A program made the translations under genes and the position numbers. Under the pieces are notes generated by a model. It ran no database searches, was not told the origin of the DNA, and saw only the letters and a program-made list of their open reading frames with translations. DNA of 64,000 nucleotides from Candidatus Dojkabacteria bacterium (lineage in GTDB: Bacteria; Patescibacteriota; Dojkabacteria; B142; JAFGFJ01): NCBI GenBank assembly GCA_016931155.1, contig JAFGFJ010000006.1:314896-378895 (forward strand), given 5' to 3'. Positions 21,347-54,320 of this stretch are shown here, one piece after another. Position 1 is the stretch's first letter. Each line of letters begins with the position of its first letter.

Positions 21347-22285
21347 ATGTTTCAATTAAATCAATTTAATGTAAAGAAAATAGAAGAAAGGGAGGATTAT
21401 GGTCTCTTTGAAATAGGTCCTCTTCCCAGAGGGTATGGTCATACTGTTGCAAATATATTGAGAAGGATTTTAATGTCTTCTATTGAAGGTGCTGCGATTA
21501 CTTCAGTCAAAATAGGAGGAATTAAACATGAATATTCAAGTCTTGAGGGTGTTCACGATGATATTCTCAAGGTTCTTCTTGGTCTAAAAAATGTTGTGCT
21601 TGTGAGCCATTCAGAAGATCCTCAAGTTTTGAAGTTGAACGTTAAAGGCGGAGCAAAGGCAAAAGAAGTGAAAGCAGGAGACATAGAAACGACAGGCGAA
21701 GTTGAGATAGTAAACCCGGATTACGTGATCACAACCTTATCTGGTCCGAAAGCCAAGATTGAAGCGGAAATTATTGTTGAAACGGGTATTGGGTATAAGT
21801 ATCCTGATGAGTCGAAAAGAAAAGAAATTGGAGTTCTGCCTCTGGATGCGAATTTTTCTCCTGTCAGAAGGATTAATACAAGAATAGTACAGGCTAGGGT
21901 TGGTCAGCAGACAGATCTTGATCAGGTAAATCTTGAGGTATATACTAACAGAGCCGTGAAAGCAAGTGATGTTTTATTGAAAGCAGTGCAAGCCCTTGAT
22001 GAAGTTGCAAATAGATTTGTTTCTCTCTTGGGTGGCACACCAAAAGAAATCGAGTACATACAGGATGAACCAGAGGTTGAAGAGAAGAAGGTTCAATTAC
22101 CAATTGAAGACCTTGGGCTTTCTACCAGACTAACAAATGCTCTTGTAAATTCCCACTATAAGGATCTTGTAGAGCTAGAGGGGATGGGTATGGAAGACTT
22201 TATGAGCATAAAAGGAATGGGGCAGAAGTCAGTTGAGGAGCTGTATGAGGTTATGAAAGAAAATGGATTGGAAACAAAAGAATAA
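21347..22285 (+). CDS. rpoA: DNA-directed RNA polymerase alpha subunit
   Basis: GPLPRGYGHTVANILRRILMSSIEGAA N-terminal domain; C-terminal domain LGLSTRLTNALVN. Confidence 0.93.
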   Translation: MFQLNQFNVKKIEEREDYGLFEIGPLPRGYGHTVANILRRILMSSIEGAAITSVKIGGIKHEYSSLEGVHDDILKVLLGLKNVVLVSHSEDPQVLKLNVKGGAKAKEVKAGDIETTGEVEIVNPDYVITTLSGPKAKIEAEIIVETGIGYKYPDESKRKEIGVLPLDANFSPVRRINTRIVQARVGQQTDLDQVNLEVYTNRAVKASDVLLKAVQALDEVANRFVSLLGGTPKEIEYIQDEPEVEEKKVQLPIEDLGLSTRLTNALVNSHYKDLVELEGMGMEDFMSIKGMGQKSVEELYEVMKENGLETKE

Positions 22286-22995
22286 TGAAGAAAGGAAGAA
22301 AGATAAAAAAAATAGGAACAGATAAATCTCACAGGGTTTCTCTGTTGAAGAACCTTTCTTCATCGTTGATCATGACGGAGTATATGACTACTACAAGGGC
22401 AAGAGCCAGGGCATTTGTCCCCTATTTTGAAAGAGTAATTACTCTGGCAAGACCTGCCGATATCAATGCAAAAAGAAGAGTGATATCATTAATTCAAAAT
22501 GAAAAAGCTACAGATAAGATTTTTGATGTTCTTTTGAAGAGATTTGAAGATACCAAATCTGGCTTGGTGAGTGTTTATAAAATTGGGAACAGAAAAGGAG
22601 ATAATGCAGAAGTTGTTAAGCTTGTTTTGAAGGGATATGAACCACCAAAGAAAAAGACGAGGATAAAGGAGGAAAAGAAAAAGGAACAAAGTGAAGAAAA
22701 GATGCTTCAAAAAGATGAGAAGGGTCTTAGTAAAGAAACTAAGCTGAATATGGAAACAGATGTGAAGAAATCGCAAGAAAAGACTGCCGAGAAAGTAGCC
22801 GAAGTTCGAAAAGAACTGGCGAAACCAGAAGAGCCAGCGGGGGGAAATAAAAAGACTATTAAAAAGGAAAGAAGATCAGAGAATAAATCATCCAAGCAGA
22901 ATGGATCATTTTTTACAAAACTATTTGGATTTGGGAAAAAGGATCAACAAAAGACTACTGTCAAAGGAAGAGCTAGATCAAGATCAGGGATTTAA
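22285..22995 (+). CDS. rplQ: 50S ribosomal protein L17 with ~115-aa K/E-rich C-terminal extension
   Basis: HRVSLLKNLSSSLIMTEYMTTTRARARAFVPYFERVITLA; 236 aa against ~120 typical. Confidence 0.9.
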   Translation: MKKGRKIKKIGTDKSHRVSLLKNLSSSLIMTEYMTTTRARARAFVPYFERVITLARPADINAKRRVISLIQNEKATDKIFDVLLKRFEDTKSGLVSVYKIGNRKGDNAEVVKLVLKGYEPPKKKTRIKEEKKKEQSEEKMLQKDEKGLSKETKLNMETDVKKSQEKTAEKVAEVRKELAKPEEPAGGNKKTIKKERRSENKSSKQNGSFFTKLFGFGKKDQQKTTVKGRARSRSGI

Positions 22996-23001
22996 TTCTA
23001 T

Positions 23002-23433
23002 ATGAAAACAAGAAGTATTAAAGAAAAAGAAACAGAGATTAAATGGTACATGATAGATGCTACCGGGGTAAGACTTGGGAAGGTTGCGACAAAGGTGGCG
23101 GGGTTGCTTATGGGTAAAGCTGATGTGAATAGGGTGGAGTATCTTGAACCTAAAAATAAAGTTGTCGTTGTGAATTGTGAAAAAGTTGAGGCTTTCCCGA
23201 AAAAATTAAAAACAAAGATTTATTATTCTCACTCGGGTTATCCAGGTGGTTTCAAAGAGAAAACACTAGAGGAGATGATGAAAAAAACTCCGGAAAAAGT
23301 AATTCAGCTTGCTGTAAAAAGAATGCTTCCCCAAAATAGAATGGGAAGAAAGATGTTCAGCAATTTGAATGTAGTGAAGGGAGCAGACCATAAATTTGAA
23401 GCTCAAAAACCAGTAGAAATTAAATTACAATAA
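23002..23433 (+). CDS. rplM: 50S ribosomal protein L13
   Basis: KWYMIDATGVRLGKVATKVAGLLMGK. Confidence 0.93.
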   Translation: MKTRSIKEKETEIKWYMIDATGVRLGKVATKVAGLLMGKADVNRVEYLEPKNKVVVVNCEKVEAFPKKLKTKIYYSHSGYPGGFKEKTLEEMMKKTPEKVIQLAVKRMLPQNRMGRKMFSNLNVVKGADHKFEAQKPVEIKLQ

Positions 23434-23834
23434 TGGAAGCAAAAATTCAAAAATATAATTATGCTGTAGGAAGAAGAAAAACTTCTGTTGCCACTATCAG
23501 ATTGTTTGAAGGAAAGGGACAGAGTTTTGTAAATGAGAAAAAGGCTGAAGAGAGATTCCCTCTTTTGGCTCAGCAGAAAAGACTTTTGAAGCCATTTGAA
23601 GTTACCGGAACGATGGGTAAATTTTACTTTACTGGGAAGGTAAAGGGTGGAGGAGTAACGGGACAGCTTGATGCTCTTGTGCATGCAATATCTCGAGCTA
23701 TGATAAAGAACGATGAGGTGTATAAAGTTGATCTTAAAAAGAACAGTCTTCTAACAAGAGATGATAGAATGACGGAAAGAAAGAAACCAGGACTTAGAAA
23801 GGCAAGAAAATCCCCTCAGTACTCAAAGCGTTAG
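23433..23834 (+). CDS. rpsI: 30S ribosomal protein S9
   Basis: YAVGRRKTSVATIRL..., C-terminal PQYSKR. Confidence 0.95.
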   Translation: MEAKIQKYNYAVGRRKTSVATIRLFEGKGQSFVNEKKAEERFPLLAQQKRLLKPFEVTGTMGKFYFTGKVKGGGVTGQLDALVHAISRAMIKNDEVYKVDLKKNSLLTRDDRMTERKKPGLRKARKSPQYSKR

Positions 23835-24026
23835 TTTGTCTCGGGCAATTTATAATTCTTCATATTTTATGTTTTTGGCGTCAATTTTGCGGGCATATTA
23901 TTTATCCCTTGGAAATAATAAGTTCTCGCAAATGCGTAGCTAAATTCTCTCAATATATGATTGTGTTGATTAGGCTGGCTGAATTTTATAGGATTGTTGA
24001 GTATTCAGGCTTAGATTATTGATTAT

Positions 24027-25316
24027 ATGAATCTAAATAGAACCAAATTAACATATGTAATACTTGGTTTAATTCTTCTATTTTCTTTTGTAACGAGAAT
24101 ATACAGAGTATGGATTCCTGCTGAGTACTATTTTGACGAGGTTTATCATGCTGTTACAGCAAAACTTTATGCCAGGAATGATCCTTCCGGGTATGAATGG
24201 TGGCATGATGAGCCAGAACCTGGTACTGCGGTTGAATGGCTACATCCCCCGATTGCAAAACTTACACAAGCTTTAGGAATAATTCTTATAGGTGAGAACA
24301 GTCTCGGGTGGAGAATATCTTCAGTTGTATTTGGAGTTGGCGTTGTTATGGCGACTTTTCTTGTTGCTAATAAACTTTCAAAATCAAGAAAAGTCGCCCT
24401 TTTGTCTGCAATTCTACTAAGTCTTGATGGTCTTGTTTTTGTCCAGTCACGTATAGCAATGAATGATATCCATGTTACTTTTTTTATTCTAATGAGTGTC
24501 TTTTTTTATTCAAAATGGAAAGACTCTCAAGAGAAACAGTTGAATCTTGTTTTGAGTGGTGTATTTACAGGCATAGCGATTGCTACAAAATGGAGTGGTG
24601 TGTTTCTGCTTGGGATATTTATTATTGATCAACTTCTTACATGGATGCCTCGAATGATCTCGAGAAAGAAGTTCCCATCTTTTGCTTTGCTCTCCAATTT
24701 ATTCATTAATTTTATTTTTCTGCCTGTGTTGATATATGTATTATCTTTTTCACAGTTTTTCCTTCAAGGGCATAGCTGGAAACAATTTGAAGGACTTCAC
24801 AGTCAAATATGGCATTATCAGACGAGTCTTGAAGCAACTCATCCTCGTCAATCAAGTCCAATTGAGTGGGTGTTGGATCTGAAGCCAGTCTGGATGTATG
24901 TGAATTATGATTCAGGAGATAAGGTTGGGAATATATATAATTTGGGTAATCCACTTATCTTTTTTGGAGGACTTATTGGTATTTTGGGGATAGTTTATAC
25001 AATTATTCGAACAAAAAACAGGAATTATATTTTGCTCGTTTTAGCATATTTGATCGTCTGGTTGCCATGGATGTTTTCTCCCAGAATAATGTTTTTCTAC
25101 CATTATTTACCCGCAGTACCTTTTCTGACAATAATACTTTCAATTTTCCTTATGTCTATGATAAATGCCAAGTCAAGATTGATAAAGTATTTGGCGTATC
25201 TATTCCTCTTTGCGTGTGCTATATGGTTTTTTCTTTTTTATCCATATTTAACAGGTCTTCCAGTCTCAAAAGAGTTTGTTTCAAAGGTTTACTATATCCT
25301 GCCGGGCTGGAAATAA
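24027..25316 (+). CDS. Polytopic membrane glycosyltransferase, family 39-like (PMT / ArnT-like, phospholipid-carrier-dependent)
   Basis: YFDEVYHAVTA ... HPPIAKLTQALG first-loop motifs of the PMT/ArnT superfamily; ~11 predicted TM helices. Confidence 0.7.
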   Translation: MNLNRTKLTYVILGLILLFSFVTRIYRVWIPAEYYFDEVYHAVTAKLYARNDPSGYEWWHDEPEPGTAVEWLHPPIAKLTQALGIILIGENSLGWRISSVVFGVGVVMATFLVANKLSKSRKVALLSAILLSLDGLVFVQSRIAMNDIHVTFFILMSVFFYSKWKDSQEKQLNLVLSGVFTGIAIATKWSGVFLLGIFIIDQLLTWMPRMISRKKFPSFALLSNLFINFIFLPVLIYVLSFSQFFLQGHSWKQFEGLHSQIWHYQTSLEATHPRQSSPIEWVLDLKPVWMYVNYDSGDKVGNIYNLGNPLIFFGGLIGILGIVYTIIRTKNRNYILLVLAYLIVWLPWMFSPRIMFFYHYLPAVPFLTIILSIFLMSMINAKSRLIKYLAYLFLFACAIWFFLFYPYLTGLPVSKEFVSKVYYILPGWK

Positions 25317-25399
25317 GTCTGCTGGAATTCCCTTAGTTTGCTCTTTATCCTTAGCTTCTCTATAATTTCATAGTAATTAGATCTGTTGTTCTACTGTCT

Positions 25400-26095
25400 A
25401 TGAAAAAAATTACGGTTATTATATTCGCTGGAATTGTCCTTCTAGGGCTTGCTGTTTGGTCACCATGGAACAGGCTGGATTTCTCTTGGCAAAGACTTCT
25501 GGGAATTGAAAAGCCGGAAGGTATGGCAGGGCTTACAGTCTATTCACTTGGGGGGAATATGGAGGTAAAAATAGATGGAGAGTTGAAGGGAGAAGTAAAT
25601 CTTGCCAATTCTCCTCTTGAAATACACGATGTTGTTCCTGGTGAGCATAAAATTGAGTTAATTAGAAAAGGTTCACAGGATAACATTTATGCCGAGTATT
25701 TTAAAAATTTAAATTTTGAGGGTAACATAAATTCAATACTAAGTTATGAGCTTGGACCAACAGAAGAGTATAGTTCGGGCTATGTATTTTATGCTGTATC
25801 CAAAGGGAATTATGATGCTCTTGCTAGTTTGTCTGTGGTATCAAGACCTGAGCAGGCAAAGATCTTTCTAGATGGAATAGATGTGGGAAATGCTCCTTTA
25901 AGAGATGTAAAAATTTCTCTCAATCAATTACATAGGCTCAGGTTTGAGAAGGAGGGATTTGAATCACTTGAATTTGAAATTTTACCAAAGGAACAGGCAG
26001 ATCGAGATAAGCTTAAAGATTATAGTCTGGCAGTTGAGGCTCGACTGTTTAAGCTTCCAATAAATATAGTAGAGGAAGTATCAAATGAGAAATGA
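25400..26095 (+). CDS. Secreted/anchored PEGA-domain protein (two PEGA-like repeats)
   Basis: N-terminal signal anchor; LTVYSLGGNMEVKIDGELKGEVNLANSPLE and SRPEQAKIFLDGIDVGNAPL resemble the PEGA beta-strand motif. Confidence 0.55.
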   Translation: MKKITVIIFAGIVLLGLAVWSPWNRLDFSWQRLLGIEKPEGMAGLTVYSLGGNMEVKIDGELKGEVNLANSPLEIHDVVPGEHKIELIRKGSQDNIYAEYFKNLNFEGNINSILSYELGPTEEYSSGYVFYAVSKGNYDALASLSVVSRPEQAKIFLDGIDVGNAPLRDVKISLNQLHRLRFEKEGFESLEFEILPKEQADRDKLKDYSLAVEARLFKLPINIVEEVSNEK

Positions 26096-29000
26096 AGCTA
26101 ATAAGCTAAAAAGTACGAGTAAATACCCAACCTCAATAATTGTTAAGGGTGTTGATACCATTGGTGTAGAGCTTGCAGGTTCACTTATTGAACAGGGGGG
26201 GTATGTAATTATGATAGACACCTACAATGAGGAATCTTTCGGGAAAATAAAACATCTGTTGGAAAAAGATCTGTTTACATTTGTTGATTTTTCAGCTCTT
26301 TCTCATCTGGAAGATGATTTGAGGAGATTGGATTATGTTTTTTTTCTGGGACATCAGGAGACTGACATCGAAAATGAAATTTCTACTCAAGAATTTCTCG
26401 AAGTATCAAATTACTTGAATGCGATTCTTGACCTTTCAACTAAATTTGAAGCTAAATTCTTATTAACAAATTCGATAAGAGCACATAGGAGACTGATAGG
26501 AGAGCAGGACGTTCATCTCAATTTTGATCTAGAAAAGACTAAAAAACACACGGTATATTCAGAAGTTGAAATTCAAAGATATGCAGAAAGTTTGGTGATG
26601 GAGTACTACGAGAAGGTTTCTTTGAATGTAAGAATTTTGAGAATGGGAGAAGTAATTGGTGAGGCTGTTGAGTTTAAAGAAAAGACTCCTCTTGGAAAGC
26701 TTATATTTGATGCAATATCAGGAAATGACCTAGAGATAACTGGTGATGGTCTTGATGAAGAGTATTATGTTCATTATCTTGATGCTGTTTACGGATTATT
26801 GAAGGGTGAATTTACTCCAAATACTAAGGGGAAGATTTTTTCGTTGGCAAATCAAGAGCCGGTTACTACATTATCTTTAGCGTATAAGGTTCAGGAATTA
26901 GAGCCAAAGGCTGGAGAAATAAAATTTGTAGAAAAAAAAGGTCCACTGTCACTCAAACTATACAAGCCAGCTGAAAACCTGGCAGTTATCGGCTGGAGGC
27001 CAAAAGTATCTTTTGACAGAGCCCTGTCACAGTCTATTGAACAAGCATATAACCACTTTAGTATCGAATCTTCTAGTCAGGTGGAAGATGTAAGGGATGA
27101 AAAAAAGAATGATGTGCTTTCCAAAAAACTTAAAAACTTCTTTTTTATCTCAGACAATAACGGAGAAAAGGAGGATACATATAAGCCAAAAGGAGAAGGC
27201 TATGGTGCTCTTTCGAGACTTATTGCAGAAAGAAAATCTCAGGAAATGGGAAGAAAAGGTAGCATTGTTCTGGCAAATGACAAACTAAGAGAAAAGGTCA
27301 AGGGTCAAAATCAGAAACCTGCTATTCAAAGATTGGGTACTAAAGCAAATAAGTTTTATGACAGAATTAAGGTTCAGTTTAATTTCCTTACTAGATTGAC
27401 TCTTAGTGAATTTGCTCTCTATTTGTTTCTTGTAATGATTTTGGCAGTGGTATATTTCGGAGTAGTATCTCCATTACTTAGTCTTGGTAAAGATGTGTAT
27501 TTTGGGAACAGAAATCTTGAAGAAGCAAAAAATAGATTTATTAGTAATGACATAATTGGTGCTAGGGAATCTGCCAAGAGTTCTCTCAATAACTTTGATG
27601 CTGCAGAGAAAACACTAAACAGATTTGAAGCATTTTTTAATCTTGTTTCCCAGAAAGAAGTATTCATTTCAGGGACTACTCTCCTGAGAGGAGCAAAAAT
27701 GTACTCTGAAGGTCTTGAACAATCATTCTCAGCTGTCTCTCCAGCGTACGAGTATTTCGAGAAGTTTGAAGATAATGTCTATTACAGACCGAATGACGGG
27801 AATCTTCTTGTTTCTGAGTCCAGTGCCGATTATTCAGAGTATCTTCAGAAGATGTCAGGAATGGAGATAGTAGCAGATGATGGGATCAGCAAAATAGTAT
27901 CAGCAACAGCTCTTATGTCAACTGCAAGAAAGAACTATTTACCTAAAACAGTAATAGAAAAAATAAATTCTATTGTAAATAATATTGATGAGACTGAGGC
28001 TGAGCTTCAAAGTGCAAAAAAAACGATTAGATATTTACCTGATCTACTGGGAGGAGATGGCCCAAAATCTTACATTATTATTCTCCAGGATAACTCAAGA
28101 TATAACCCTTCAGGAGGCAAAATCAATTCATATGCTTTCTTAACATTTGAAAAAGGTGGTTTAAAATCTATTAAGGTTGAAAATGCATCCAGCCTAAACC
28201 TGTCATTTGATAGGTTGAATCCAAAAACACTTGACCAGATCAATCTGATTTCGTTTCAGAATCTAAAAGTAGAGGACGTAACTCTCAGTGATTTTCAGCT
28301 CATAAATGATTTTGATCTGTTTAGCAGTGAAATTATTCCTTACCTTGAAAATTATTTTGAGAGGGATATTGATGGCGCCATATTTTTAAATATTAACAGT
28401 CTTGAAAAATTAATTGAATTGTATGGCGGAATTGAAGTCGAGCAAATTGAATTTGACGGGAAAAATCTTCTGATGAATGTTGATCTGGTTCTAAGAGACA
28501 ATAGGGAGGAAAATAGAAGAACAGAGATTATTACTCAGGTATTTGCGCTTGTGCTTCAGAAAATATTCACTTCAACAGGAGAAAAAACGCTGGAACTTGC
28601 TTCTCTTTCAAATGTTCAGCTGGAAGTAAAGGATATGATGCTTCAGTTCGAGGGTGAATATTATCAGGAGCAGATTGAAACAAATAATTGGAATGGGAGG
28701 TTTAACAACAACTCAGATTTTATTAAGATTGCAGTGGTTTCAAAGGCAAGGGAATTTTCTCAAACAAAATATCCTAACTTAAATATTGATATAAATGATA
28801 GGTTGAAGTCTGACTTAACAACTGTTAAACAAGTTACAATTGAACCTAAAAGTCTTGAAGATCTTGATTATGTGACTGTATGCCTTCCTGCTGGAGCTAC
28901 AGAATTAAATTTTGGTGAAATTAATCCTTTACTGTACAACCAGAATTTTAGTGCTGGAAATGAGTGTGTGAGTATAAAATTTGGTCAAATAAGCAGGGCT

Positions 29001-29234
29001 GTGATATCATACAAGACCCCAGCTTTTGAAAGTGTAAGGGGCAATAGTTACAATTACAACGTAAGTATCCAAAATACTCCTGGACTCAATCTGATTTATG
29101 ATTATGAGTTGGAATTTGATCCGGGTTTGTACCCTCTTGAGTATGACGATAGAGGATTCCTCCAAAGAGATAAGCTGATATATGCAGGTACTCTTGATGG
29201 AAATTTAATTTTGAATTTAAAATTCGGAAGATGA
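26085..29234 (+). CDS. 1049-aa bitopic membrane protein: N-terminal degenerate NAD-dependent epimerase/dehydratase-like (Rossmann) domain, one TM helix (~aa 440-470), large C-terminal exported domain of unknown function
   Basis: IVKGVDTIGVELAGSLIEQGGYVIMID replaces the GxxGxxG motif; YSEVE replaces the catalytic YxxxK; GDGLDEEYYVHYLDAV replaces GDGxQxRDFxYVDD; TM segment FALYLFLVMILAVVYFGVVSPLLSL. Confidence 0.5.
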   Translation: MRNEANKLKSTSKYPTSIIVKGVDTIGVELAGSLIEQGGYVIMIDTYNEESFGKIKHLLEKDLFTFVDFSALSHLEDDLRRLDYVFFLGHQETDIENEISTQEFLEVSNYLNAILDLSTKFEAKFLLTNSIRAHRRLIGEQDVHLNFDLEKTKKHTVYSEVEIQRYAESLVMEYYEKVSLNVRILRMGEVIGEAVEFKEKTPLGKLIFDAISGNDLEITGDGLDEEYYVHYLDAVYGLLKGEFTPNTKGKIFSLANQEPVTTLSLAYKVQELEPKAGEIKFVEKKGPLSLKLYKPAENLAVIGWRPKVSFDRALSQSIEQAYNHFSIESSSQVEDVRDEKKNDVLSKKLKNFFFISDNNGEKEDTYKPKGEGYGALSRLIAERKSQEMGRKGSIVLANDKLREKVKGQNQKPAIQRLGTKANKFYDRIKVQFNFLTRLTLSEFALYLFLVMILAVVYFGVVSPLLSLGKDVYFGNRNLEEAKNRFISNDIIGARESAKSSLNNFDAAEKTLNRFEAFFNLVSQKEVFISGTTLLRGAKMYSEGLEQSFSAVSPAYEYFEKFEDNVYYRPNDGNLLVSESSADYSEYLQKMSGMEIVADDGISKIVSATALMSTARKNYLPKTVIEKINSIVNNIDETEAELQSAKKTIRYLPDLLGGDGPKSYIIILQDNSRYNPSGGKINSYAFLTFEKGGLKSIKVENASSLNLSFDRLNPKTLDQINLISFQNLKVEDVTLSDFQLINDFDLFSSEIIPYLENYFERDIDGAIFLNINSLEKLIELYGGIEVEQIEFDGKNLLMNVDLVLRDNREENRRTEIITQVFALVLQKIFTSTGEKTLELASLSNVQLEVKDMMLQFEGEYYQEQIETNNWNGRFNNNSDFIKIAVVSKAREFSQTKYPNLNIDINDRLKSDLTTVKQVTIEPKSLEDLDYVTVCLPAGATELNFGEINPLLYNQNFSAGNECVSIKFGQISRAVISYKTPAFESVRGNSYNYNVSIQNTPGLNLIYDYELEFDPGLYPLEYDDRGFLQRDKLIYAGTLDGNLILNLKFGR

Positions 29235-29695
29235 AACATAAGACTGTAATAACGAAAGAAGGTTTAAAGGATTTGAAAAATGAGCTTGATACCAGGAAGG
29301 ATAAGTTGAAAGAGATTGCTGATAAAATTGATGAGGCACGTCAGCAGGGAGACCTTTCTGAGAATGCTGCTTATACTACGGCTCTTTCAGAGAAAGAAAT
29401 GAATGAGGCGAAAATTAAGGAACTGGAAGATAAAATAAGTGGCTCGATAGTAGTTGAAGCTGATCCTTTAAATCCAGAAGTTGAACTTGGCGAGAAGGTT
29501 CTGGTGCGGCGGAGTTCTGATAACAAAAGGTTAACATATGAAATTGTTGGGATTGAAGAATCCAATCCGAGTGAAGGGAAAATATCTATAGGCTCTCCTA
29601 TTGGCAAGGCTTTGGCACATAAGAAGAAGGGAGATAAAGTAAAAGTTAAACTGCCATCTGGAGAGGAGGAGTTTTTAATTGAGGAAATTGCATAA
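29231..29695 (+). CDS. greA: Transcription elongation factor GreA
   Basis: ITKEGLKDLKNELD...QQGDLSENAAYTTA coiled-coil plus FKBP-like C-terminal domain. Confidence 0.88.
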   Translation: MKHKTVITKEGLKDLKNELDTRKDKLKEIADKIDEARQQGDLSENAAYTTALSEKEMNEAKIKELEDKISGSIVVEADPLNPEVELGEKVLVRRSSDNKRLTYEIVGIEESNPSEGKISIGSPIGKALAHKKKGDKVKVKLPSGEEEFLIEEIA

Positions 29696-29715
29696 TCAGT
29701 TTTCTCCTGAAAATT

Positions 29716-30981
29716 ATGGAAAGACATTCAGTGCCCCAAAATATTATGGATGTCGAGTTCAAGCTTTTTGGAAGCCTGACCGTAAGACAGTTCGCTAACC
29801 TTGCAGGATCTATTGTCGTTGCGGTTATTTTATATTTTTTTAATATTCCCGGAATTATCAAATGGCCAGCAATCGTCGGTTTTGTTTTCTTGGGCATAAG
29901 TTTGGCACTGGTTAAGATAAATGGTCAAACATTTGGTACTTGGCTTGGCAATTTTCTGGCTTCTATGTTTAGTTCCCAGAGGAAAATATGGAAGAAAGAT
30001 CCGAAAGTTCCTGAGATACTTACAAAGACTTACCGTCCACGAGTAAGTAATGAACAGCTTGTTTCTGCGAAGAAAAAAGAGTTACCTCCTTTTCTACGTG
30101 AGGATATAATTCAATCTACAAACGTAGTAGATGAAGAGGAGGAAGAGCGGCTAAAGAAATTAGAAAAATACATTCTTGGTGGTACCTCTTCAACGATAAG
30201 TGAGCAATTAATTTCAGACGAAGAAAAAGCACAACGACCGGTAATAATTGATCCTTCAGATCAAAATCTTGCTGGCACAATGAATACGGCAAATGAGGAT
30301 AATTATTCTATAAATCAGTCGGACGAATTCGCAGTAATTGGAAAGAAGATGGCTAATCAGAGAGAGCGACCGATAAGCTCAAGACTTGTGCATAAGAACC
30401 TTGCGGAAAACATAGGAATTGCTGTAAGTGAAGATACTAAAGAGTCCGGTTTGGGCAAGGAAAAAGAAAAAAAGTCAGAAATAGGTTATCTTTCTGAGAA
30501 ACCTGTTAATGATATGAACAGAGGATTAGATGTGAAAAGGAGTTCTTCCGACGAATTGATAGAGGCTAATAAAATACTGCAGGAAAGGATACAGGAACTT
30601 ACAGAAAAAGCGAAAAAATCTCCTGATGACTCTCAGATAGCTCAAAAACTTGCAGAGATGGAAAAACGTCTGGTGGAAATTCAGTCGGGAGGTTCGTTCG
30701 CTAATGAAAAAATAGTATCTCAAAAACCAAATGTTATTAGTGGTATAGTAACTGATAAAGAAAATAAATTACTTCCTGATGTTAGGGTGTTGATTAAGGA
30801 CAGAAGGGGTTTTTTGGTTAGATCACTGATTACTGATAAGCAAGGTTACTTTGTTACGACAACTTCACTTCCTGACGGCGATTATTTAGTTGAATTTGAA
30901 AGCGATAGACATCCTTTTGACCAGTATAAAGTTAACCTGAACGGGTCTTTGAAAGATACGTATAAATTTACTGCCAGATGA
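29716..30981 (+). CDS. VirB3/PrgI-like membrane protein fused to a long linker and a C-terminal carboxypeptidase-regulatory-like beta-sandwich domain
   Basis: N-terminus VEFKLFGSLTVRQFANLAGSIVVAVILYFF plus a second TM, as in the PrgI family; C-terminus ISGIVTDKENKLLPDVRVLIKDRRGFLVRSLITDKQGYFVTTTSLPDGDYLVEFE resembles a CarbopepD_reg/Big-like fold. Confidence 0.55.
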   Translation: MERHSVPQNIMDVEFKLFGSLTVRQFANLAGSIVVAVILYFFNIPGIIKWPAIVGFVFLGISLALVKINGQTFGTWLGNFLASMFSSQRKIWKKDPKVPEILTKTYRPRVSNEQLVSAKKKELPPFLREDIIQSTNVVDEEEEERLKKLEKYILGGTSSTISEQLISDEEKAQRPVIIDPSDQNLAGTMNTANEDNYSINQSDEFAVIGKKMANQRERPISSRLVHKNLAENIGIAVSEDTKESGLGKEKEKKSEIGYLSEKPVNDMNRGLDVKRSSSDELIEANKILQERIQELTEKAKKSPDDSQIAQKLAEMEKRLVEIQSGGSFANEKIVSQKPNVISGIVTDKENKLLPDVRVLIKDRRGFLVRSLITDKQGYFVTTTSLPDGDYLVEFESDRHPFDQYKVNLNGSLKDTYKFTAR

Positions 30982-31000
30982 TTTATCTTATTAGTTAATA

Positions 31001-31684
31001 ATGGCGTTTTTAGGAAGAAAAGAAACAACAACTCAGGAACATCTTGATATTGAGGATGTCAGAGATGATCTTGTTGTGTTAAAAAATGGTAACGTTTCTC
31101 TTGTTATGGAGACGACTTCTTTGAACTTTGATCTTCTTTCGGAAGAGGAACAGGATATACGAATTCTTGCCTTTGCAGGGCTTATGAACTCATTGAATTT
31201 CCCTGTACAGATAGTTGTTAGAACAGAAAGAACAGACGTAACTGATTATGTAGATAAGCTAAAGATCTATAAGGAAAAACAGATTTCGTTGGCCTTAAAA
31301 AGACAAATAGAGATTTACATGCAATTTATTAAGAATCTTACTGTGAACACCGAGGTTCTTGATAAAAGATTCTTTGTTGTTATACCAGGAATAATATCAA
31401 GTATACAAAGAACTAGTGCTGTGAGACAGATCTTCGGTAAACCAGTAAAAATTAAAAATATCGAGGAGGTGCTTGAAAAAGCCAAATTACTTCTTTATCC
31501 AAAACGTGATCATCTGCTGAAGCAGTTTCAAAAAATGGGGATAATTGCAGAGCAACTAAAAACTGATGATTTAATACGTTTGTATTACGGTATTTATCAA
31601 CCGGATACTCCTGGAATTAAGAAATTAATTTTGAAAAAACAGGATTTTTCTACTGGGATTGTAGAAACTTTAAAAGAAGAATAA
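31001..31684 (+). CDS. Possible N-terminal fragment of a VirB4/TraE-like conjugation ATPase (separate ORF, different frame from the ATPase body)
   Basis: LDIEDVRDDLVVLKNGNVSLVMETTSLNFDLLSEEEQDIRILAFAGLMNSL resembles the conserved N-terminus of Gram-positive VirB4 homologues; ends 4 nt before the next ORF. Confidence 0.4.
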   Translation: MAFLGRKETTTQEHLDIEDVRDDLVVLKNGNVSLVMETTSLNFDLLSEEEQDIRILAFAGLMNSLNFPVQIVVRTERTDVTDYVDKLKIYKEKQISLALKRQIEIYMQFIKNLTVNTEVLDKRFFVVIPGIISSIQRTSAVRQIFGKPVKIKNIEEVLEKAKLLLYPKRDHLLKQFQKMGIIAEQLKTDDLIRLYYGIYQPDTPGIKKLILKKQDFSTGIVETLKEE

Positions 31685-31688
31685 CAAT

Positions 31689-33635
31689 ATGTGGATATTT
31701 GGAAAAAGCAAAAAAGAAAAGGAAAAAGAGAAGGAACAGACAAGTCAGTCAGAGGATCTTGAAGAGAAGGCAATTGAAAAATTCGCTGAGGGATTGATTG
31801 ATGTAAAAGATCTGATAGCTCCGTCAGCGATGGAGGTGGATTTTAACGATGTTCTTGTAGGAAATAAGTACTTTAGAACTTTCCTTGCTACTGGATTTCC
31901 AAGCCATGTCGGACCAAATTGGCTTTCTCCACTTATCAATTTTGACTTTCCTGTAGATATAAGCACGTTTTATTATCCTGTGGATAGTTCAATGATAATG
32001 CAAAGACTCAAACGAAAGATTGGAGAAATGGAGGCAACAATCAGTCTTGATCTTGAAGCAGGAAAAGTGGTTGATCCATATGTTAAGGTTGCACTTGAAG
32101 ATGCAAAGAATTTACAGGAACAAATAGCAAAAGGTACAGAGAAATTTTTTCACTTTGCTCTTTATGTAACTATTCGAGCAGGCAGTATCAGGGAGCTTGA
32201 AAAAATCTCGAAGAATCTTATTTCAACAATGTCTTCTATTAGTGTGATTCTAAAGGTGGCTACTTTGCAGCAGGAACAAGGTTTTCAGAGTGTTGTACCT
32301 GTAGGAATAGACAAGATCTATATGACCAGAAATATGGATACGACCTCTTTGGCGACCACATTCCCATTCGTTAGCTCAGAGCTTACTATGGATACTGGTA
32401 TTTTGTACGGAATAAATAAACACAATAGAAGTCTTGTGATTTTTGACAGGTTTGAACTTGAAAATGCTAATGCAGTTGTTTTTGCAACTTCCGGGGCGGG
32501 AAAAAGTTATATGGTAAAGCTTGAGGCTATGAGAAGTCTTATGTTCGGGACTGAAATACTGATAATTGATCCCGAAAGAGAATATGAGAAGCTAACGAAA
32601 ACAATTGGAGGAGAATACGTATCGTTTTCGCAAGATGGCGCGCAAAAATTGAATCCATTTGAGCTTTCAGGAATTTATGACAAAGATGAAGACGAGCTAA
32701 GAATGAAAATTCTATCACTTCACGGCCTTATGAGGATTATGATGGGTGGAGATTTTTCTCCGGAAGAATCTGCAATACTTGATAGGGCACTTATTTTGAC
32801 GTATAAAGAAAAAGGCATTACGGTTGATCCTGTCACACACAAAAAAGAACCACCTCTTCTTGAGGATTTATATAAGATTCTCCAGGCAATGGCAGAGCCT
32901 CAAGCTCATAATCTTGCGACAAGACTTGAGAGGTTTGTAAGAGGAAGTGCAGCTGGTATTTTTGACAGAAAATCAAATATTGAGATTAAGAATACATTTA
33001 CTGTTTTTAGTATTCGAGAGTTGAGTGATGACCTAAGGCCTATAGCAATGTATATGATGCTTGATTTTATTTGGACAAGAGTGAAAAGACTTCGAAAGAA
33101 AAGACTTCTAATAGTGGATGAGGCATGGTGGATGATGCAGTATCCAGATGCAGCAAAATTTATCCACTCAATGGCAAAAAGAGCCAGAAAGTACGGTCTT
33201 GGGCTTACTACAATTACTCAAGATGTTGAGGACTTTTTGAGTACGGATTACGGGAAAGCTGTTGTTACAAATTCATCAATACAAATATTAATGAAGCAAA
33301 GTCCTGTAGCTATAGATAAGATTCAGAAGATATTCTATTTGTCTCAAGGTGAGAAGAACTATCTACTTTCAGCAGGTATTGGGGAAGGTCTATTCTTTGC
33401 CGGATCAAATCATGTGGCAATTCAGGTAATTGCGAGTGAAAATGAGCATAATCTAATAACTACATCTTATAAAGATATGGAGAAAGAGGAGAAGAAAAAA
33501 GCGGCATTGGCAGAAGAAGCTGTAAAAAATGCCGGAATTGGTATTGCAGATATTCCTGAAAATACAAACCAGCAAGTTTCCCCTACTGATAATATTAATT
33601 CCTATACTGGTAATACTTCTTCCAATGCGGTATAA
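31689..33635 (+). CDS. VirB4/TrbE/PrgJ-like type IV secretion ATPase (AAA_10 domain)
   Basis: Walker A FATSGAGKSY, Walker B LLIVDEAWWMM; upstream region IAPSAMEVDFNDVLVGNKYFRTFLATGFPSHVGPNWLSPLI matches the VirB4 family motif. Confidence 0.7.
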   Translation: MWIFGKSKKEKEKEKEQTSQSEDLEEKAIEKFAEGLIDVKDLIAPSAMEVDFNDVLVGNKYFRTFLATGFPSHVGPNWLSPLINFDFPVDISTFYYPVDSSMIMQRLKRKIGEMEATISLDLEAGKVVDPYVKVALEDAKNLQEQIAKGTEKFFHFALYVTIRAGSIRELEKISKNLISTMSSISVILKVATLQQEQGFQSVVPVGIDKIYMTRNMDTTSLATTFPFVSSELTMDTGILYGINKHNRSLVIFDRFELENANAVVFATSGAGKSYMVKLEAMRSLMFGTEILIIDPEREYEKLTKTIGGEYVSFSQDGAQKLNPFELSGIYDKDEDELRMKILSLHGLMRIMMGGDFSPEESAILDRALILTYKEKGITVDPVTHKKEPPLLEDLYKILQAMAEPQAHNLATRLERFVRGSAAGIFDRKSNIEIKNTFTVFSIRELSDDLRPIAMYMMLDFIWTRVKRLRKKRLLIVDEAWWMMQYPDAAKFIHSMAKRARKYGLGLTTITQDVEDFLSTDYGKAVVTNSSIQILMKQSPVAIDKIQKIFYLSQGEKNYLLSAGIGEGLFFAGSNHVAIQVIASENEHNLITTSYKDMEKEEKKKAALAEEAVKNAGIGIADIPENTNQQVSPTDNINSYTGNTSSNAV

Positions 33636-33643
33636 ATAAAAAG

Positions 33644-34204
33644 ATGTTTCCACTAGATATTTTTACAAAACAATTCAACCTGAGTGGGCTAGTACTTATA
33701 GCCTCTGTTGCTATTTTTTCTTTGGCAGTAATTATTCTTTTGGTGAATGTTGTTATATTAAACAGGAAGCTAAAAAAAGCTACTACACCGACGTATGGTT
33801 TTGCAGGAAAGCCAATATATCCCATTATTGCAACATTGCTAATATCTGTATCTATACCTCTAGCTGTATATTCTTTATCTCAGGAGACTACTTTTGAACA
33901 AAAAGCAGAAGAAAATGTGATTCTACAGAGTAGTCATTATGTGGTATCAAGAGATGGGGAGAATTTACGGCTTGAGTTTAATGTTGTTCCATATGTAGAT
34001 GGGGTAGCTTGGGGAGAAAAGTCGTTTGATATTTTCTGGTCATTTAAGGGAAAAACATCCAAAACTAGCTATGAGTTTAATAAATCTGCGATTAATCCCA
34101 GTAAAATGACAATTACTTTGCCAAAAGGTGAGTATGATCTTACTATTCTTGTTACTTATGAGAATAGATCTCAGAGGTTAGAACAAAAGCTTGTTCTAAA
34201 ATAA
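33644..34204 (+). CDS. Small two-TM membrane protein with beta-rich C-terminal domain, cotranscribed with the VirB4-like gene
   Basis: Two hydrophobic helices (LVLIASVAIFSLAVIILLVNVVIL; IYPIIATLLISVSIPLAVYSL); starts 9 nt after the VirB4-like stop. Confidence 0.45.
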   Translation: MFPLDIFTKQFNLSGLVLIASVAIFSLAVIILLVNVVILNRKLKKATTPTYGFAGKPIYPIIATLLISVSIPLAVYSLSQETTFEQKAEENVILQSSHYVVSRDGENLRLEFNVVPYVDGVAWGEKSFDIFWSFKGKTSKTSYEFNKSAINPSKMTITLPKGEYDLTILVTYENRSQRLEQKLVLK

Positions 34205-34223
34205 TTCTTGTTTGTGCGTGCTA

Positions 34224-34229
34224 TAATTA
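34224..34229 (+). promoter_or_regulatory. -10 box (TATAAT, with upstream TGn-like tgtgcgtgc) for rnpB
   Basis: gctataatta immediately 5' of the P1 helix of the RNase P RNA. Confidence 0.5.
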
Positions 34230-34234
34230 TTTCG

Positions 34235-34627
34235 GTCTAGTCAGAACGGTCGCTAAGCGTGAGCTTAGAGGAAAGTCCGAACTCCTCTTGGCACAATAGT
34301 CAGGACAAGGTACCTTGGAGACAAGGCAGGGAGTGATCTCTGGGATTAGAGCAACAGAAAGTAAGGAGCCTGCGAATTGCAGGCGATCTTGAAAGGGTGC
34401 CTCCGGGTTTTTCTGGGGGGCGTACATGAAATTTCATGTATGACGTGTAAGAGACCACCGGTCACGATAGTAATATCGAGATGCTGGTAATCCCTATCGG
34501 GAGCAAGATCAAAGTGTAGATCGCAAAGTGTTTGTTCTTTTGATTAATCAGAACAAATACTGCTAGAGAAATGACCGTCATTCTGGTGTTGCCAGAAAGA
34601 ACAGAATTCGGCTTATTGACTAGACCA
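34235..34627 (+). ncRNA. rnpB: RNase P RNA, bacterial type A-like
   Basis: Universal motifs read in sequence: AGAGGAAAGUCCGAACUCC (P4 5' strand), GUAAGAGACCACC, ACAGAAUUCGGCUUAUUGACUAGACC (P4 3' strand plus P1); the 5' GGUCUAGUCAG pairs with the 3' UUGACUAGACC to form P1; no ORF of significance. Confidence 0.88.
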
Positions 34628-34734
34628 TTTTTTCAACCACTTCAGGAGTATTTCCATTTGGGTGCATAATACTTCCTGTATAGAAACCATTATTTCTTGA
34701 AAATTTCAATTTACAGTGGGAACACATAGATACA

Positions 34735-40033: not shown

Positions 40034-40105
40034 TCCGAATTATATCACAGGAAACTATTGTAGTTATATATTTAATATTGTTCAAAACGCTAATACGATG
40101 ATATA

Positions 40106-54240: not shown

Positions 54241-54320
54241 TGAGTAGCTATCTCCGAAGCACTTCAAGTCTCTGTGCATGAGTAGCTCTTCCCGCAGCAC
54301 TTCAAATTCCTGTCGTAAGT
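54241..54320. repeat. Imperfect tandem duplication (~38 nt x2, ~80% identity) spanning the stop codon and 3' end of the 424-aa ORF
   Basis: tgagtagctatctccgaagcacttcaagtctctgtgca followed by tgagtagctcttcccgcagcacttcaaattcctgtcgt. Confidence 0.7.

What the first reader, a model, noticed from the sequence alone, without database searches (positions are those of the whole stretch)
24027..29234. Envelope glycosylation cluster: GT39-like mannosyltransferase, PEGA protein and a 1049-aa membrane protein with a dead epimerase domain
A PMT/ArnT-type polytopic glycosyltransferase is followed by a PEGA-repeat secreted protein (PEGA domains are typical of S-layer-associated proteins). Next comes a giant bitopic protein whose cytoplasmic N-terminal half has the fold signature of an NAD-dependent sugar epimerase/dehydratase. 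All three catalytic or cofactor motifs are degenerate: the glycine-rich loop is VDTIGVELAG, and YxxxK is replaced by YSEVE. Its ~580-aa external domain has no recognisable family. Tight spacing and overlap suggest co-transcription (25400 follows 25316; 26085 overlaps 26095). This looks like a surface-layer glycosylation or assembly system with a pseudo-enzyme scaffold.
Basis: partly seen in the sequence, partly recalled or inferred. Interest (0 to 1): 0.6.

Follow-up and report, generated by a model that had tools for sequence, protein, structure and literature searches.

The report
Membrane protein: dead epimerase plus LCP-like domain
In this candidate-phylum (Dojkabacteria) genome, a 1049-residue membrane protein joins an inactive sugar-nucleotide enzyme domain inside the cell to an outside domain folded like the LCP enzymes that attach sugar polymers to the cell wall. 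It always travels with a small PEGA surface protein, but the neighbouring mannosyltransferase is not a conserved partner.

Summary
The three ORFs and their domain calls are real: PMT/GT39-like, 2x PEGA, and a 1049-aa bitopic protein with an N-terminal extended-SDR fold. The organism is a Candidatus Dojkabacteria (CPR) bacterium.

The SDR domain is closest to UDP-xylose synthase. It lacks the middle glycine of GxxGxxG, the catalytic Lys and the UXS Glu/Arg, and this holds across 116 homologues. It is nevertheless the most conserved part of the protein. Distant CPR relatives with the same fusion keep canonical motifs.

- **The ectodomain is not family-less.** It is Pfam DUF4012. A confident AF2 model shows a helical stalk, an LCP (LytR-CpsA-Psr)-like alpha/beta domain and a beta-sandwich.
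- **The cluster is not conserved.** PEGA, SDR/DUF4012 and greA are syntenic in 63/64 and 59/64 loci. The PMT is present in only 2/64, and the window holds no other glycan-pathway genes.

Best reading: a Dojkabacteria-wide envelope module whose LCP-like ectodomain handles a lipid-linked surface glycopolymer, with a pseudo-SDR as cytoplasmic scaffold or regulator. The anatomy is solid and the mechanism is inferred. Most LCP pyrophosphate-binding arginines are missing, so a non-catalytic role is a serious rival.

Verdict: new variant of a known kind; moderate interest.

The parts
24027..25316 (+). GT39/PMT-like polytopic glycosyltransferase (429 aa). It is an adjacent gene, not part of the conserved module.
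   Evidence: Pfam PMT E 9e-25, PMT_4TMC 1e-17, PMT_2 6e-12. The loop-1 'DE' motif is present as F-D37-E38-V-Y-H. At least 9 hydrophobic segments. NCBIfam Pmt equivalog scores 96.9 bits against a cut-off of 800. Present next to the module in only 2/64 loci.
25400..26095 (+). N-terminally anchored or secreted protein with two PEGA beta-sandwich domains (231 aa). It is the conserved partner gene.
   Evidence: Pfam PEGA E 2e-14, two stretches. One N-terminal hydrophobic segment at aa 4-22. A homologue lies directly upstream of the big gene in 63/64 loci, with 26-71% identity. It overlaps the next gene by 11 nt.
26085..27089 (+). Cytoplasmic extended-SDR (UDP-xylose-synthase-like) pseudo-enzyme domain, aa 1-335 of the 1049-aa protein.
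   Evidence: phmmer to human UXS1 4gll, E 3.7e-9. AF2 pLDDT 84.7. Foldseek 4gll E 1.3e-19, prob 1.0. Motif table across 116 homologues. It is the most conserved part of the protein.
27210..27284 (+). Conserved cytoplasmic juxtamembrane motif (aa 376-400, LSRLIAERKSQEMGRKGSIVLANDK) within an otherwise variable, charged linker.
   Evidence: Column conservation is 0.62 here against 0.23-0.34 in the flanking linker. L379, E382, R383 and A397 are nearly invariant.
27411..27479 (+). Single transmembrane helix (about aa 443-465), oriented N-in/C-out.
   Evidence: Kyte-Doolittle peak of 2.72 at aa 443-461. K+R 11 against D+E 3 in the 46 residues before it.
27525..28049 (+). Extracellular helical-bundle stalk (aa 481-655).
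28056..28703 (+). DUF4012 = LCP (LytR-CpsA-Psr)-like alpha/beta domain (aa 658-873). Conserved D669-N670-x-R672, G677-G678, D763, N769, R/K812.
28716..29231 (+). C-terminal beta-sandwich domain (aa 878-1049). It holds the protein's only two cysteines, C933 and C961, both invariant.
29231..29695 (+). greA (transcript cleavage factor). It overlaps the big gene by 4 nt and is syntenic, but is probably not functionally part of the envelope module.
   Evidence: Pfam GreA_GreB_N and GreA_GreB. Downstream in 59/64 loci; the misses are loci where the contig ends before or just after the gene.

Best explanation
Proposed system. This is a Dojkabacteria-wide two-gene envelope module embedded among housekeeping genes, between rpsI and greA.
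- Gene 1 encodes a membrane-anchored protein with two PEGA domains.
- Gene 2 encodes a bitopic (N-in/C-out) protein. Its extracellular part is a helical stalk, an LCP-like alpha/beta domain (Pfam DUF4012) and a disulfide-bearing beta-sandwich.

Proposed ectodomain function (inferred). The LCP-like domain binds a polyprenyl-phosphate-linked surface glycopolymer. It then transfers or processes that polymer at the cell wall, the job CpsA/TagTUV do in Gram-positives. The PEGA protein would act as an extracellular partner.

Proposed cytoplasmic function (inferred). The cytoplasmic domain descends from an active UDP-xylose-synthase-like SDR that is still intact in other CPR lineages. In Dojkabacteria it has lost its catalytic residues and survives as a strongly conserved non-catalytic module. 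Dimerisation, recruitment or regulation are the likely roles.

The PMT gene. It is a lineage-specific insertion at a variable site upstream of the module.

Status of each step. Shown: gene structure, domain folds, motif loss, conservation and synteny. Inferred: substrate, catalysis, the PEGA interaction and the role of the pseudo-SDR.
For: Anatomy and folds
- ORFs and Pfam calls.
- The SDR fold is closest to UXS1.
- The AF2 ectodomain model is confident: pLDDT 89.3, pTM 0.85.
- A collinear profile-profile alignment gives P 2.4e-4 and exceeds all 20 block shuffles, a reversed profile and an unrelated-family control.
- That alignment matches D669 to the LCP GxDxR Asp, D763/N769 to the VDYFVxVN motif, and R/K812 to a conserved LCP Arg.

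Topology
- Positive-inside bias before the TM, and an invariant Cys pair outside.

Pseudo-enzyme
- Motif losses are family-wide, yet the domain has 54% mean column identity against 31-33% for the ectodomain.
- Fusion relatives in WWE3, Daviesbacteria and other Patescibacteria keep GGAGF[IL]GSHL and GPRM. One of them (P0210) also has a clear YxxxK. They match Pfam Epimerase at 1e-32.

Pathway context elsewhere
- Those intact relatives sit next to Wzx, small two-TM Wzz-like, Wzy_C and PEGA genes.
- In Bifidobacterium longum, the DUF4012 gene lies between the priming transferase and wzz in the EPS locus (PMC5412050).
- DUF4012 is listed among families shared by CPR and Gram-positives (PMC6744442).

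Synteny
- PEGA in 63/64 loci, greA in 59/64, PMT in 2/64.
Against: - Most of the arginines and aspartates that bind the pyrophosphate and Mg2+ in LCP enzymes have no conserved counterpart. This covers the GRxD Arg/Asp, PRD, RxR and RxxRQ positions.
- HMMER finds no LCP match in Pfam or the PDB.
- The profile-profile signal is modest: 44% probability, and one block shuffle reached a score of 28.5 against 31.9.
- No Wzx/Wzy, priming transferase or other glycopolymer gene was found in the ORFs scanned in this window.
- At least one Dojkabacteria locus also carries a canonical LCP fragment (L064). The DUF4012 protein is therefore not simply that lineage's LCP.
- No model coordinates were available, so I could not check whether the conserved residues line a pocket.
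- No experimental data exist for any DUF4012 protein in the searchable literature.
Confidence: 0.45

Rival explanations
1. Non-catalytic envelope scaffold. The DUF4012 ectodomain keeps the LCP fold but has lost transferase chemistry. Together with the PEGA protein it acts as a structural spacer, wall-binding element or surface-layer anchor. Both ends of the protein would then be pseudo-enzymes.
For: - Most LCP pyrophosphate-binding Arg/Asp positions are not conserved.
- The ectodomain is the fast-evolving part, at 31-33% column identity.
- A long helical stalk and a terminal beta-sandwich resemble a surface-exposed strut.
- PEGA domains are associated with surface-layer-type proteins (Pfam family description; established knowledge, not tested here).
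- A canonical LCP is present in at least one Dojkabacteria locus.
Against: - A small set of polar residues in the LCP-like domain is invariant or nearly so across 116-206 sequences: D669, N670, G677, G678, R/K812. That pattern fits an active or ligand-binding site better than a pure strut.
- The wider DUF4012 family has its own near-invariant E-x-R...GG motif.
Confidence: 0.3
2. PMT, the PEGA protein and the big protein together form a surface-layer protein O-glycosylation and assembly system. PMT mannosylates the PEGA/S-layer protein and the pseudo-enzyme acts as scaffold.
For: - The PMT has the DE motif and full GT39 architecture.
- The three genes are co-oriented with short spacing.
- No convincing terminator lies between them.
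Against: - The PMT is adjacent in only 2 of 64 loci. In other genomes the same slot is empty or holds a different gene, for example a 1693-aa beta-helix protein in L006.
- No polyprenol-phosphate-mannose synthase or S-layer gene was found in the ORFs scanned in the window.
- The PMT scores far below the Pmt equivalog threshold.
Confidence: 0.1
3. The SDR domain is not dead. It still binds NAD(H) or a UDP-sugar and works as a cytoplasmic sensor or atypical enzyme that controls the ectodomain, in the way NmrA/HSCARG-type atypical SDRs act.
For: - The beta2 Asp45 is invariant, and it normally binds the adenine ribose.
- Tyr158 and the Ser are retained, as are the first and last Gly of the loop.
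- A new, strictly conserved motif, Y-[TS]-E-x-x-[ILV]-Q-[RK]-Y-A-E, replaces YxxxK.
- The domain is the most conserved part of the protein.
Against: - The middle Gly is replaced by D/N/S/T, variably. An Asp there should clash with the dinucleotide pyrophosphate (inference from Rossmann-fold knowledge).
- The catalytic Lys, the UXS Glu and Arg, and the Arg of the GxGxQxR nucleotide-sugar motif are all lost.
- The loop at aa 140-152 is predicted disordered.
Confidence: 0.15
4. The module is an accessory of the CPR type IV secretion/pilus machinery encoded just downstream (PrgI/VirB3, TraC-like, VirB4).
For: T4SS genes follow greA in 26-31 of 64 loci, and all are co-oriented. CPR T4SS loci are often in highly expressed regions (bioRxiv 10.1101/2025.01.22.634366).
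Against: - In roughly half of the loci the T4SS genes are elsewhere, while PEGA, SDR/DUF4012 and greA stay together.
- Intact-SDR relatives sit near Wzx/Wzz/Wzy genes, not T4SS genes.
- The T4SS survey paper mentions neither DUF4012 nor PEGA.
Confidence: 0.05

Closest known systems
LCP (LytR-CpsA-Psr) phosphotransferases, e.g. S. pneumoniae Cps2A and B. subtilis TagT/U/V
   Same: - Motifs are collinear: a beta1 strand ending in a conserved Asp, VDxxxxxN...L...GG, and a basic residue at the start of the late helix.
- DUF4012 genes in other taxa occupy the 'cpsA slot' next to wzz/wzx/wzy and priming-transferase genes.
   Different: - No HMMER-level similarity.
- Most pyrophosphate-binding arginines and the PRD motif are missing.
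- It adds a 175-aa helical stalk, a C-terminal beta-sandwich and a 440-aa cytoplasmic region that LCP proteins lack.
- No activity has been shown.
UDP-xylose synthase / UDP-glucuronate decarboxylase (UXS1, ArnA-type extended SDRs)
   Same: - Whole-domain homology (phmmer E 4e-9; Foldseek E 1e-19).
- Both the Rossmann and the substrate subdomains are present.
- Tyr, Ser and the beta2 Asp are retained.
   Different: - The second Gly of GxxGxxG, the catalytic Lys, the UXS Glu and Arg, and the UDP-binding Arg are all lost.
- There is a 2-residue insertion in the Tyr-Lys helix.
- It is tethered to the membrane and fused to an extracellular domain.
Ordinary DUF4012 proteins (PF13196; 600-700 aa, TM + ectodomain) of Actinobacteria, Firmicutes, Chloroflexi and CPR, e.g. 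BL105A_0406 in the B. longum EPS locus
   Same: The ectodomain family is the same. The profile search finds 6302 cluster representatives, and all 45 sampled match PF13196.
   Different: - They lack the cytoplasmic SDR domain.
- Their motif is Q-N-N-x-E-L-R-x-T-G-G, whereas the Dojkabacteria clade has Q-D-N-x-R-x-x-P-x-G-G.
Atypical, non-catalytic SDRs (NmrA, HSCARG/NMRAL1)
   Same: An SDR fold is retained with an altered glycine motif and an incomplete catalytic set, and it is used for regulation or binding (established knowledge).
   Different: Those proteins are soluble, and most still bind NAD(P). Here binding is untested and the domain is membrane-tethered.

Membership tests
Extended SDR / NAD-dependent epimerase-dehydratase (PF01370), UXS clade | Rossmann fold plus C-terminal substrate-binding subdomain, homologous over the full length | tested here: met
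   phmmer to 4gll, E 3.7e-9 over aa 18-328. AF2 + Foldseek E 1.3e-19, TM 0.69/0.76. Pfam score of 22.5 bits is just above the cut-off.
Extended SDR / NAD-dependent epimerase-dehydratase (PF01370), UXS clade | TGxxGxxG dinucleotide-binding glycine motif | tested here: not met
   The window has K-G-V-D-T-I-G. Family-wide the middle Gly is D44/N33/S23/T12 of 116; the first and last Gly are kept.
Extended SDR / NAD-dependent epimerase-dehydratase (PF01370), UXS clade | Catalytic Ser/Thr-Tyr-Lys triad (YxxxK) | tested here: not met
   Tyr is kept in 116/116 and Ser in 99/116. Lys is replaced by Gln in 113/116 (gapped) or Glu (ungapped).
Extended SDR / NAD-dependent epimerase-dehydratase (PF01370), UXS clade | UXS-specific catalytic Glu (STSE) and Arg (GPR) | tested here: not met
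   Glu is replaced by Lys/Arg in 112/116. Arg is replaced by Gly in 96/116 (Ala in the window).
LCP (LytR-CpsA-Psr, PF03816) | LCP alpha/beta fold in an extracytoplasmic, membrane-anchored domain | tested here: met
   [not shown]
LCP (LytR-CpsA-Psr, PF03816) | Sequence match to the family model | tested here: not met
   No PF03816 hit at E<=10 for the window, or at E<=1 for 45 DUF4012 proteins. No LCP chain found by hmmsearch against the PDB. Only hhalign gives a signal: P 2.4e-4, prob 44%.
LCP (LytR-CpsA-Psr, PF03816) | Conserved Arg/Asp set that binds the polyprenyl pyrophosphate and Mg2+ (GxDxR, GRxD, PRD, RxR, RxxRQ) | tested here: not met
   Only D669 (D86/N14%), the neighbouring R672 (60%) and R/K812 (92%) have counterparts. 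The other positions are variable or deleted. This depends on a remote alignment.
LCP (LytR-CpsA-Psr, PF03816) | Glycopolymer-phosphate transfer to peptidoglycan | not testable with these tools
   Needs biochemistry.
DUF4012 (PF13196) | Match above the Pfam gathering score | tested here: met
   35.2-36.5 bits against a cut-off of 28, aa 658-795. NCBI names the identical protein 'DUF4012 domain-containing protein'.
GT39 protein O-mannosyltransferase (PMT) | PMT + PMT_4TMC domains, loop-1 Asp-Glu motif, polytopic membrane protein | tested here: met
   Pfam E 9e-25 and 1e-17. D37-E38. At least 9 hydrophobic segments.
GT39 protein O-mannosyltransferase (PMT) | Orthology to characterised bacterial Pmt (NCBIfam equivalog NF058602) | tested here: not met
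   96.9 bits against a cut-off of 800.
S-layer glycosylation / assembly gene cluster | Co-conserved S-layer protein, glycan synthesis, flippase and transferase genes | tested here: not met
   PMT is adjacent in only 2/64 loci. No such genes were found in the window ORFs scanned.

The most novel reading that the evidence does not exclude
The protein is an inside-out coupling device specific to CPR bacteria. The membrane-tethered pseudo-SDR still senses a cytoplasmic nucleotide (NAD(H) or a UDP-sugar). Through oligomerisation across the single TM helix, it gates an extracellular LCP-like ligase, which works with the PEGA protein to attach a surface glycopolymer. DUF4012 would then be a second, unrecognised branch of the LCP superfamily with its own catalytic motif.
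Probability: 0.12. Interest if true: 0.75.

Novelty: new variant of a known kind. Interest (0 to 1): 0.5.

Why it matters
CPR/Patescibacteria make up a large part of bacterial diversity, and almost nothing is known about how they build their envelope.

DUF4012 is a large family: 6302 cluster representatives in the profile search. It has been flagged as shared by CPR and Gram-positives, and it sits in EPS loci, but it has no assigned fold or function in the searchable literature. Placing it in the LCP fold gives a concrete biochemical hypothesis that can be tested: polyprenyl-phosphate-glycan handling at the wall.

The SDR fusion series runs from intact in WWE3 and Microgenomates to degenerate but hyper-conserved in Dojkabacteria. 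It is a clean natural example of an enzyme domain being repurposed as a pseudo-enzyme on a transmembrane protein.

The work also corrects a tempting over-reading. The PMT neighbour is incidental.

Tried and rejected
1. **Sequence-only route to a function for the ectodomain.** Pfam at E<=10, NCBIfam, and phmmer/hmmsearch against the PDB gave only DUF4012 and chance coiled-coil hits.
2. **First AF2 submission.** I rebuilt it and it worked.
3. **hhalign with four PDB-derived LCP fragments.** This was too shallow: probability 8%, with only the VDxxxxxN..GG motif aligned. Adding TagU orthologues raised it to P 2.4e-4. The TagU search returned only close orthologues (>=69% identity), so the LCP profile remains narrow.
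4. **pNZ4000 'LCP family protein' as a seed.** It proved to be a degenerate LCP. I used it only to pull PDB LCP sequences.
5. **Promoter/terminator scan.** No informative signal for operon boundaries.
6. **afdb50 fold search.** Not available on the machine.
7. **T4SS link.** I checked the CPR T4SS preprint for DUF4012, PEGA and GreA. None is mentioned.
8. **Three-gene operon-system reading.** Considered and rejected on synteny.

Full report
**1. What is in the sequence**

The window is low-GC (about 36%) and gene-dense.
- 24027-25316, 429 aa.
- 25400-26095, 231 aa.
- 26085-29234, 1049 aa.

An 83-nt gap separates the first two genes, and the second and third overlap by 11 nt. Upstream lies the end of the ribosomal-protein/rpoA block (L17, L13, S9). 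Downstream of greA lie PrgI/VirB3-like, TraC-like and VirB4-like T4SS genes.

The 1049-aa protein is 100% identical to an NCBI protein from a Candidatus Dojkabacteria (CPR/WS6) MAG, annotated 'DUF4012 domain-containing protein'.

**2. Domain calls**

- **ORF1.** It matches PMT (E 9e-25), PMT_4TMC (1e-17) and PMT_2. It carries the loop-1 Asp-Glu motif (F-D37-E38-V-Y-H) and has at least 9 hydrophobic segments. It is a GT39-type GT-C enzyme, but it scores far below the NCBIfam Pmt equivalog threshold (96.9 against 800 bits).
- **ORF2.** It has one N-terminal hydrophobic segment and two PEGA stretches (E 2e-14).
- **ORF3.** It has a weak Pfam Epimerase match (22.5 bits, aa 26-239) and a DUF4012 match (aa 658-795, 35.2 bits against a cut-off of 28).
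- **ORF3 topology.** There is a single TM helix at aa 443-461, with K+R 11 against D+E 3 just before it. The protein's only two cysteines, C933 and C961, are invariant and lie after the TM. This fits an N-in/C-out topology with an extracellular disulfide.

**3. The N-terminal domain is a genuine but degenerate extended SDR**

phmmer against PDB sequences finds human UDP-xylose synthase (4gll, E 3.7e-9) aligned over aa 18-328. An AF2 model of aa 1-340 (pLDDT 84.7) hits the same enzyme first by Foldseek (E 1.3e-19, prob 1.0). Other nucleotide-sugar epimerases, dehydratases and decarboxylases follow.

I aligned 116 full-length homologues to the UXS1 fragment:

| Position | State in the family |
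|---|---|
| Glycine loop | G-x-[D/N/S/T]-x-L-G: middle Gly lost, outer two kept |
| beta2 Asp | 116/116 kept |
| Catalytic Thr/Ser position | Ser in 99/116 |
| Tyr | 116/116 kept |
| UXS Glu | Lys/Arg |
| UXS Arg | Gly (Ala in the window) |

This domain is also the most conserved part of the protein. Per-25-residue column conservation is 0.45-0.74, against 0.22-0.52 in the ectodomain. Mean column identity is 54% for the domain, against 31-33% for the ectodomain. The replacement motif Y-[TS]-E-x-x-[ILV]-Q-[RK]-Y-A-E is itself almost invariant. The domain is being maintained, not decaying.

**4. The fusion is older than the degeneration**

A profile of the ectodomain searched against 1.84 billion cluster representatives finds 6302 proteins at E<=1e-3. 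Many are 600-700-aa 'TM + ectodomain' DUF4012 proteins. About a hundred are 950-1090-aa fusions whose N-terminus matches the SDR profile.

The most distant fusions are P0210, P0216, P0221, P0229, P0194 and P0224:
- They retain canonical GGAGF[IL]GSHL and GPR[MS] motifs, and P0210 also has a clear YxxxK.
- Members of that sampled set match Pfam Epimerase at up to 1e-32 and GDP_Man_Dehyd at 5e-26.
- Where named, they come from WWE3, Daviesbacteria and unclassified Patescibacteria.

I infer that an active UXS-like enzyme was fused to a DUF4012 protein early in CPR evolution. The catalytic residues were then lost in the clade that includes Dojkabacteria.

**5. The ectodomain fold**

I built a 36-sequence alignment of aa 481-1049. 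AF2 gave a confident model with pLDDT 89.3, pTM 0.85 and no segment below 50. It has three parts:
- A helical bundle, aa about 481-655.
- An alpha/beta domain covering the DUF4012 region, aa about 658-873.
- A beta-sandwich, aa about 878-1049.

The alpha/beta domain matches three LCP (LytR-CpsA-Psr) structures:

Each has 16% identity, the highest among the listed hits. Foldseek agrees independently. About 15 LCP entries appear in its top 50, with E from 8.5e-4 to 3e-2 over 213-259 columns. They include Cps2A with bound octaprenyl pyrophosphate, TagT/U/V, MsrR, LytR, gbs0355 and EF0465.

**6. Is DUF4012 a member of the LCP family?**

HMMER sees no relationship.

I recovered LCP sequences from PDB alignments and from a TagU search. 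I then ran hhalign against a 206-sequence DUF4012 central-domain alignment. The result was one collinear alignment of 192 columns spanning the whole LCP domain, with P 2.4e-4 and probability 44%. Its score of 31.9 exceeds 20/20 block shuffles (maximum 28.5), the reversed profile (16.9) and an unrelated SDR profile (15.9). This is a real but modest signal.

The residue map gives these correspondences:

| DUF4012 residue | Conservation | LCP counterpart |
|---|---|---|
| D669 | D 86% / N 14% | Asp of GxDxR |
| R672 | 60% | one position from that motif's Arg |
| D763 / N769 | - | VDYFVxVN |
| R/K812 | 92% | a conserved Arg |

The GRxD Arg/Asp, the PRD motif, the RxR pair and the RxxRQ arginines bind the pyrophosphate and Mg2+ in LCP enzymes (established knowledge from the Cps2A/TagT structures). 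These have no conserved counterpart in DUF4012.

Verdict: the fold is LCP-like and remote homology is probable, but the protein is not a member of PF03816. Catalytic equivalence is unproven.

**7. Which genes belong together**

I examined 64 loci. Seven came from exact-protein look-ups, one of which (L001) is the window's own contig. The other 57 came from a scan of one genome per GTDB species. By record title, most of these loci are labelled Dojkabacteria or 'uncultured Candidatus Saccharibacteria' MAGs. One is labelled Doudnabacteria and several are unclassified. I assign them to Dojkabacteria by inference from homology and shared synteny.

tblastn with the window's proteins gave:

| Gene | Loci where found |
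|---|---|
| PEGA homologue directly upstream | 63/64 (the exception starts mid-gene) |
| greA downstream | 59/64 (the misses are loci where the contig ends before or just after the gene) |
| S9 upstream | 29/64 |
| T4SS genes downstream | 26-31/64 |
| PMT within +-6 kb | 2/64 (the window's own contig and its 66%-identical relative) |

In a 53%-identical relative, the S9-PEGA slot instead holds a 1693-aa beta-helix protein. The conserved unit is therefore PEGA + SDR/DUF4012 (+ greA). The PMT is a lineage-specific occupant of a variable site.

No Wzx, Wzy, priming transferase, polyprenol-phosphate-mannose synthase or S-layer gene was found among the window ORFs scanned with Pfam (22285-35433 and the ORFs of at least 150 aa from 36163 to 62942). 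The region upstream of 22285 was not scanned apart from the ribosomal and SecY genes listed.

**8. Context in relatives and in the literature**

- The intact-SDR fusion of a Daviesbacteria genome lies just downstream of a Wzx-type flippase and a 182-aa two-TM Wzz-like protein.
- Another intact-SDR fusion (P0221) is divergently adjacent to a 208-aa Wzz-like gene. Two Wzy_C genes and a PEGA+SH3 protein lie nearby; that protein resembles the window's PEGA protein at E 7e-10.
- In Bifidobacterium longum 105-A, the DUF4012 gene lies between the priming glycosyltransferase and wzz in the EPS locus (PMC5412050).
- Meheust et al. list the DUF4012 family among those shared by CPR and Gram-positive-type bacteria (PMC6744442).
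- This is the genomic position that cpsA (an LCP) holds in streptococcal capsule loci (established knowledge).

**9. Most likely mechanism**

*Shown.* A bitopic protein with a conserved, catalytically crippled UXS-like domain inside and an LCP-fold domain outside. It is always paired with a PEGA protein.

*Inferred.*
- The LCP-like domain binds a polyprenyl-phosphate-linked glycopolymer, using the D669/N670/R672/R812 cluster, and transfers or processes it at the wall.
- The helical stalk and beta-sandwich position the domain.
- The PEGA protein is an extracellular partner.
- The pseudo-SDR provides oligomerisation, recruitment or regulation. Extended SDRs are obligate dimers or tetramers (established knowledge).

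I put about 0.45 on this overall. The main rival, at about 0.3, is that the ectodomain too has lost catalysis and the pair is structural. Two observations count against simple functional equivalence to LCP enzymes. The LCP arginines are missing, and a canonical LCP fragment is present in one Dojkabacteria locus (L064).

**10. Novelty and score**

The protein is already in databases under automatic names. DUF4012 is a known but uncharacterised Pfam family with only three text hits.

To my knowledge from the searchable literature, four things are new:
- The LCP-like fold assignment.
- The CPR-wide SDR-DUF4012 fusion series, with an intact-to-degenerate transition.
- The finding that the pseudo-enzyme is the most constrained part of the protein.
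- The strict PEGA/greA synteny.

This is a new variant of a known kind, of moderate interest (0.5). It is useful for CPR envelope biology and for annotating a large DUF, but it is not paradigm-changing without biochemistry.

Noticed in passing
window 29716-33635 (+): CPR-type T4SS genes lie directly after greA: a PrgI/VirB3-like protein (421 aa) with an unusual C-terminal CarboxypepD_reg/SdrD_B-like beta-sandwich, a 227-aa TraC-like protein, and a VirB4-like ATPase (648 aa). They are co-located with the module in about 28 of 64 loci.
   Followed up: partly
window 23835-24026, and L006:626-5707: The slot between rpsI (S9) and the PEGA gene is variable. It holds the PMT here and in L005, a 1693-aa beta-helix/CarboxypepD_reg protein in L006, and nothing in most other loci.
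   Followed up: partly
L059:6001-8391 and L060 (MAGs ELA588 and ELA406): These loci carry 797-aa variants of the big protein. They align only to about residue 762-779 of the window protein and so lack the C-terminal beta-sandwich. greA still follows them.
   Followed up: no
L053 (WS6 OLB20) and L056: The homologous gene is split. The longest ORFs are 369 aa and 555 aa, although tblastn similarity continues across the full length. This could be a frameshift, a pseudogene or an assembly error.
   Followed up: no
L064:3468-3821: A canonical LCP-family fragment (tblastn with TagU, E 2.7e-7) lies about 1 kb upstream of the PEGA gene in one Dojkabacteria contig. These genomes can therefore carry both a true LCP and the DUF4012 protein.
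   Followed up: no
window 39275-41092: A sortase (252 aa, minus strand) is divergently paired with a DUF11/DUF7507 repeat surface protein (328 aa). This suggests Gram-positive-style covalent wall anchoring in this organism.
   Followed up: no
window 42504-43952 (-) and 45569-47299 (+): Two likely secreted or membrane proteins: a CAP (cysteine-rich secretory protein) + Big_13 protein (482 aa), and a weak transglutaminase-core protein (576 aa). Several neighbouring ORFs have no Pfam match (33644-34204, 49669-50397, 51778-52977, 54264-55538).
   Followed up: no
L066:6404-6952 and L067:6303-6929: Very small (182-208 aa) two-TM Wzz/PCP-like proteins lie next to the intact-SDR DUF4012 fusions in other CPR lineages. 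In Dojkabacteria the neighbouring position is taken by the PEGA protein instead.
   Followed up: partly
window 29231-29234, and 59/64 loci: greA is translationally coupled to the envelope gene by a 4-nt overlap here, and it is syntenic in every locus where the downstream sequence is available. I found no functional reason for this link.
   Followed up: partly
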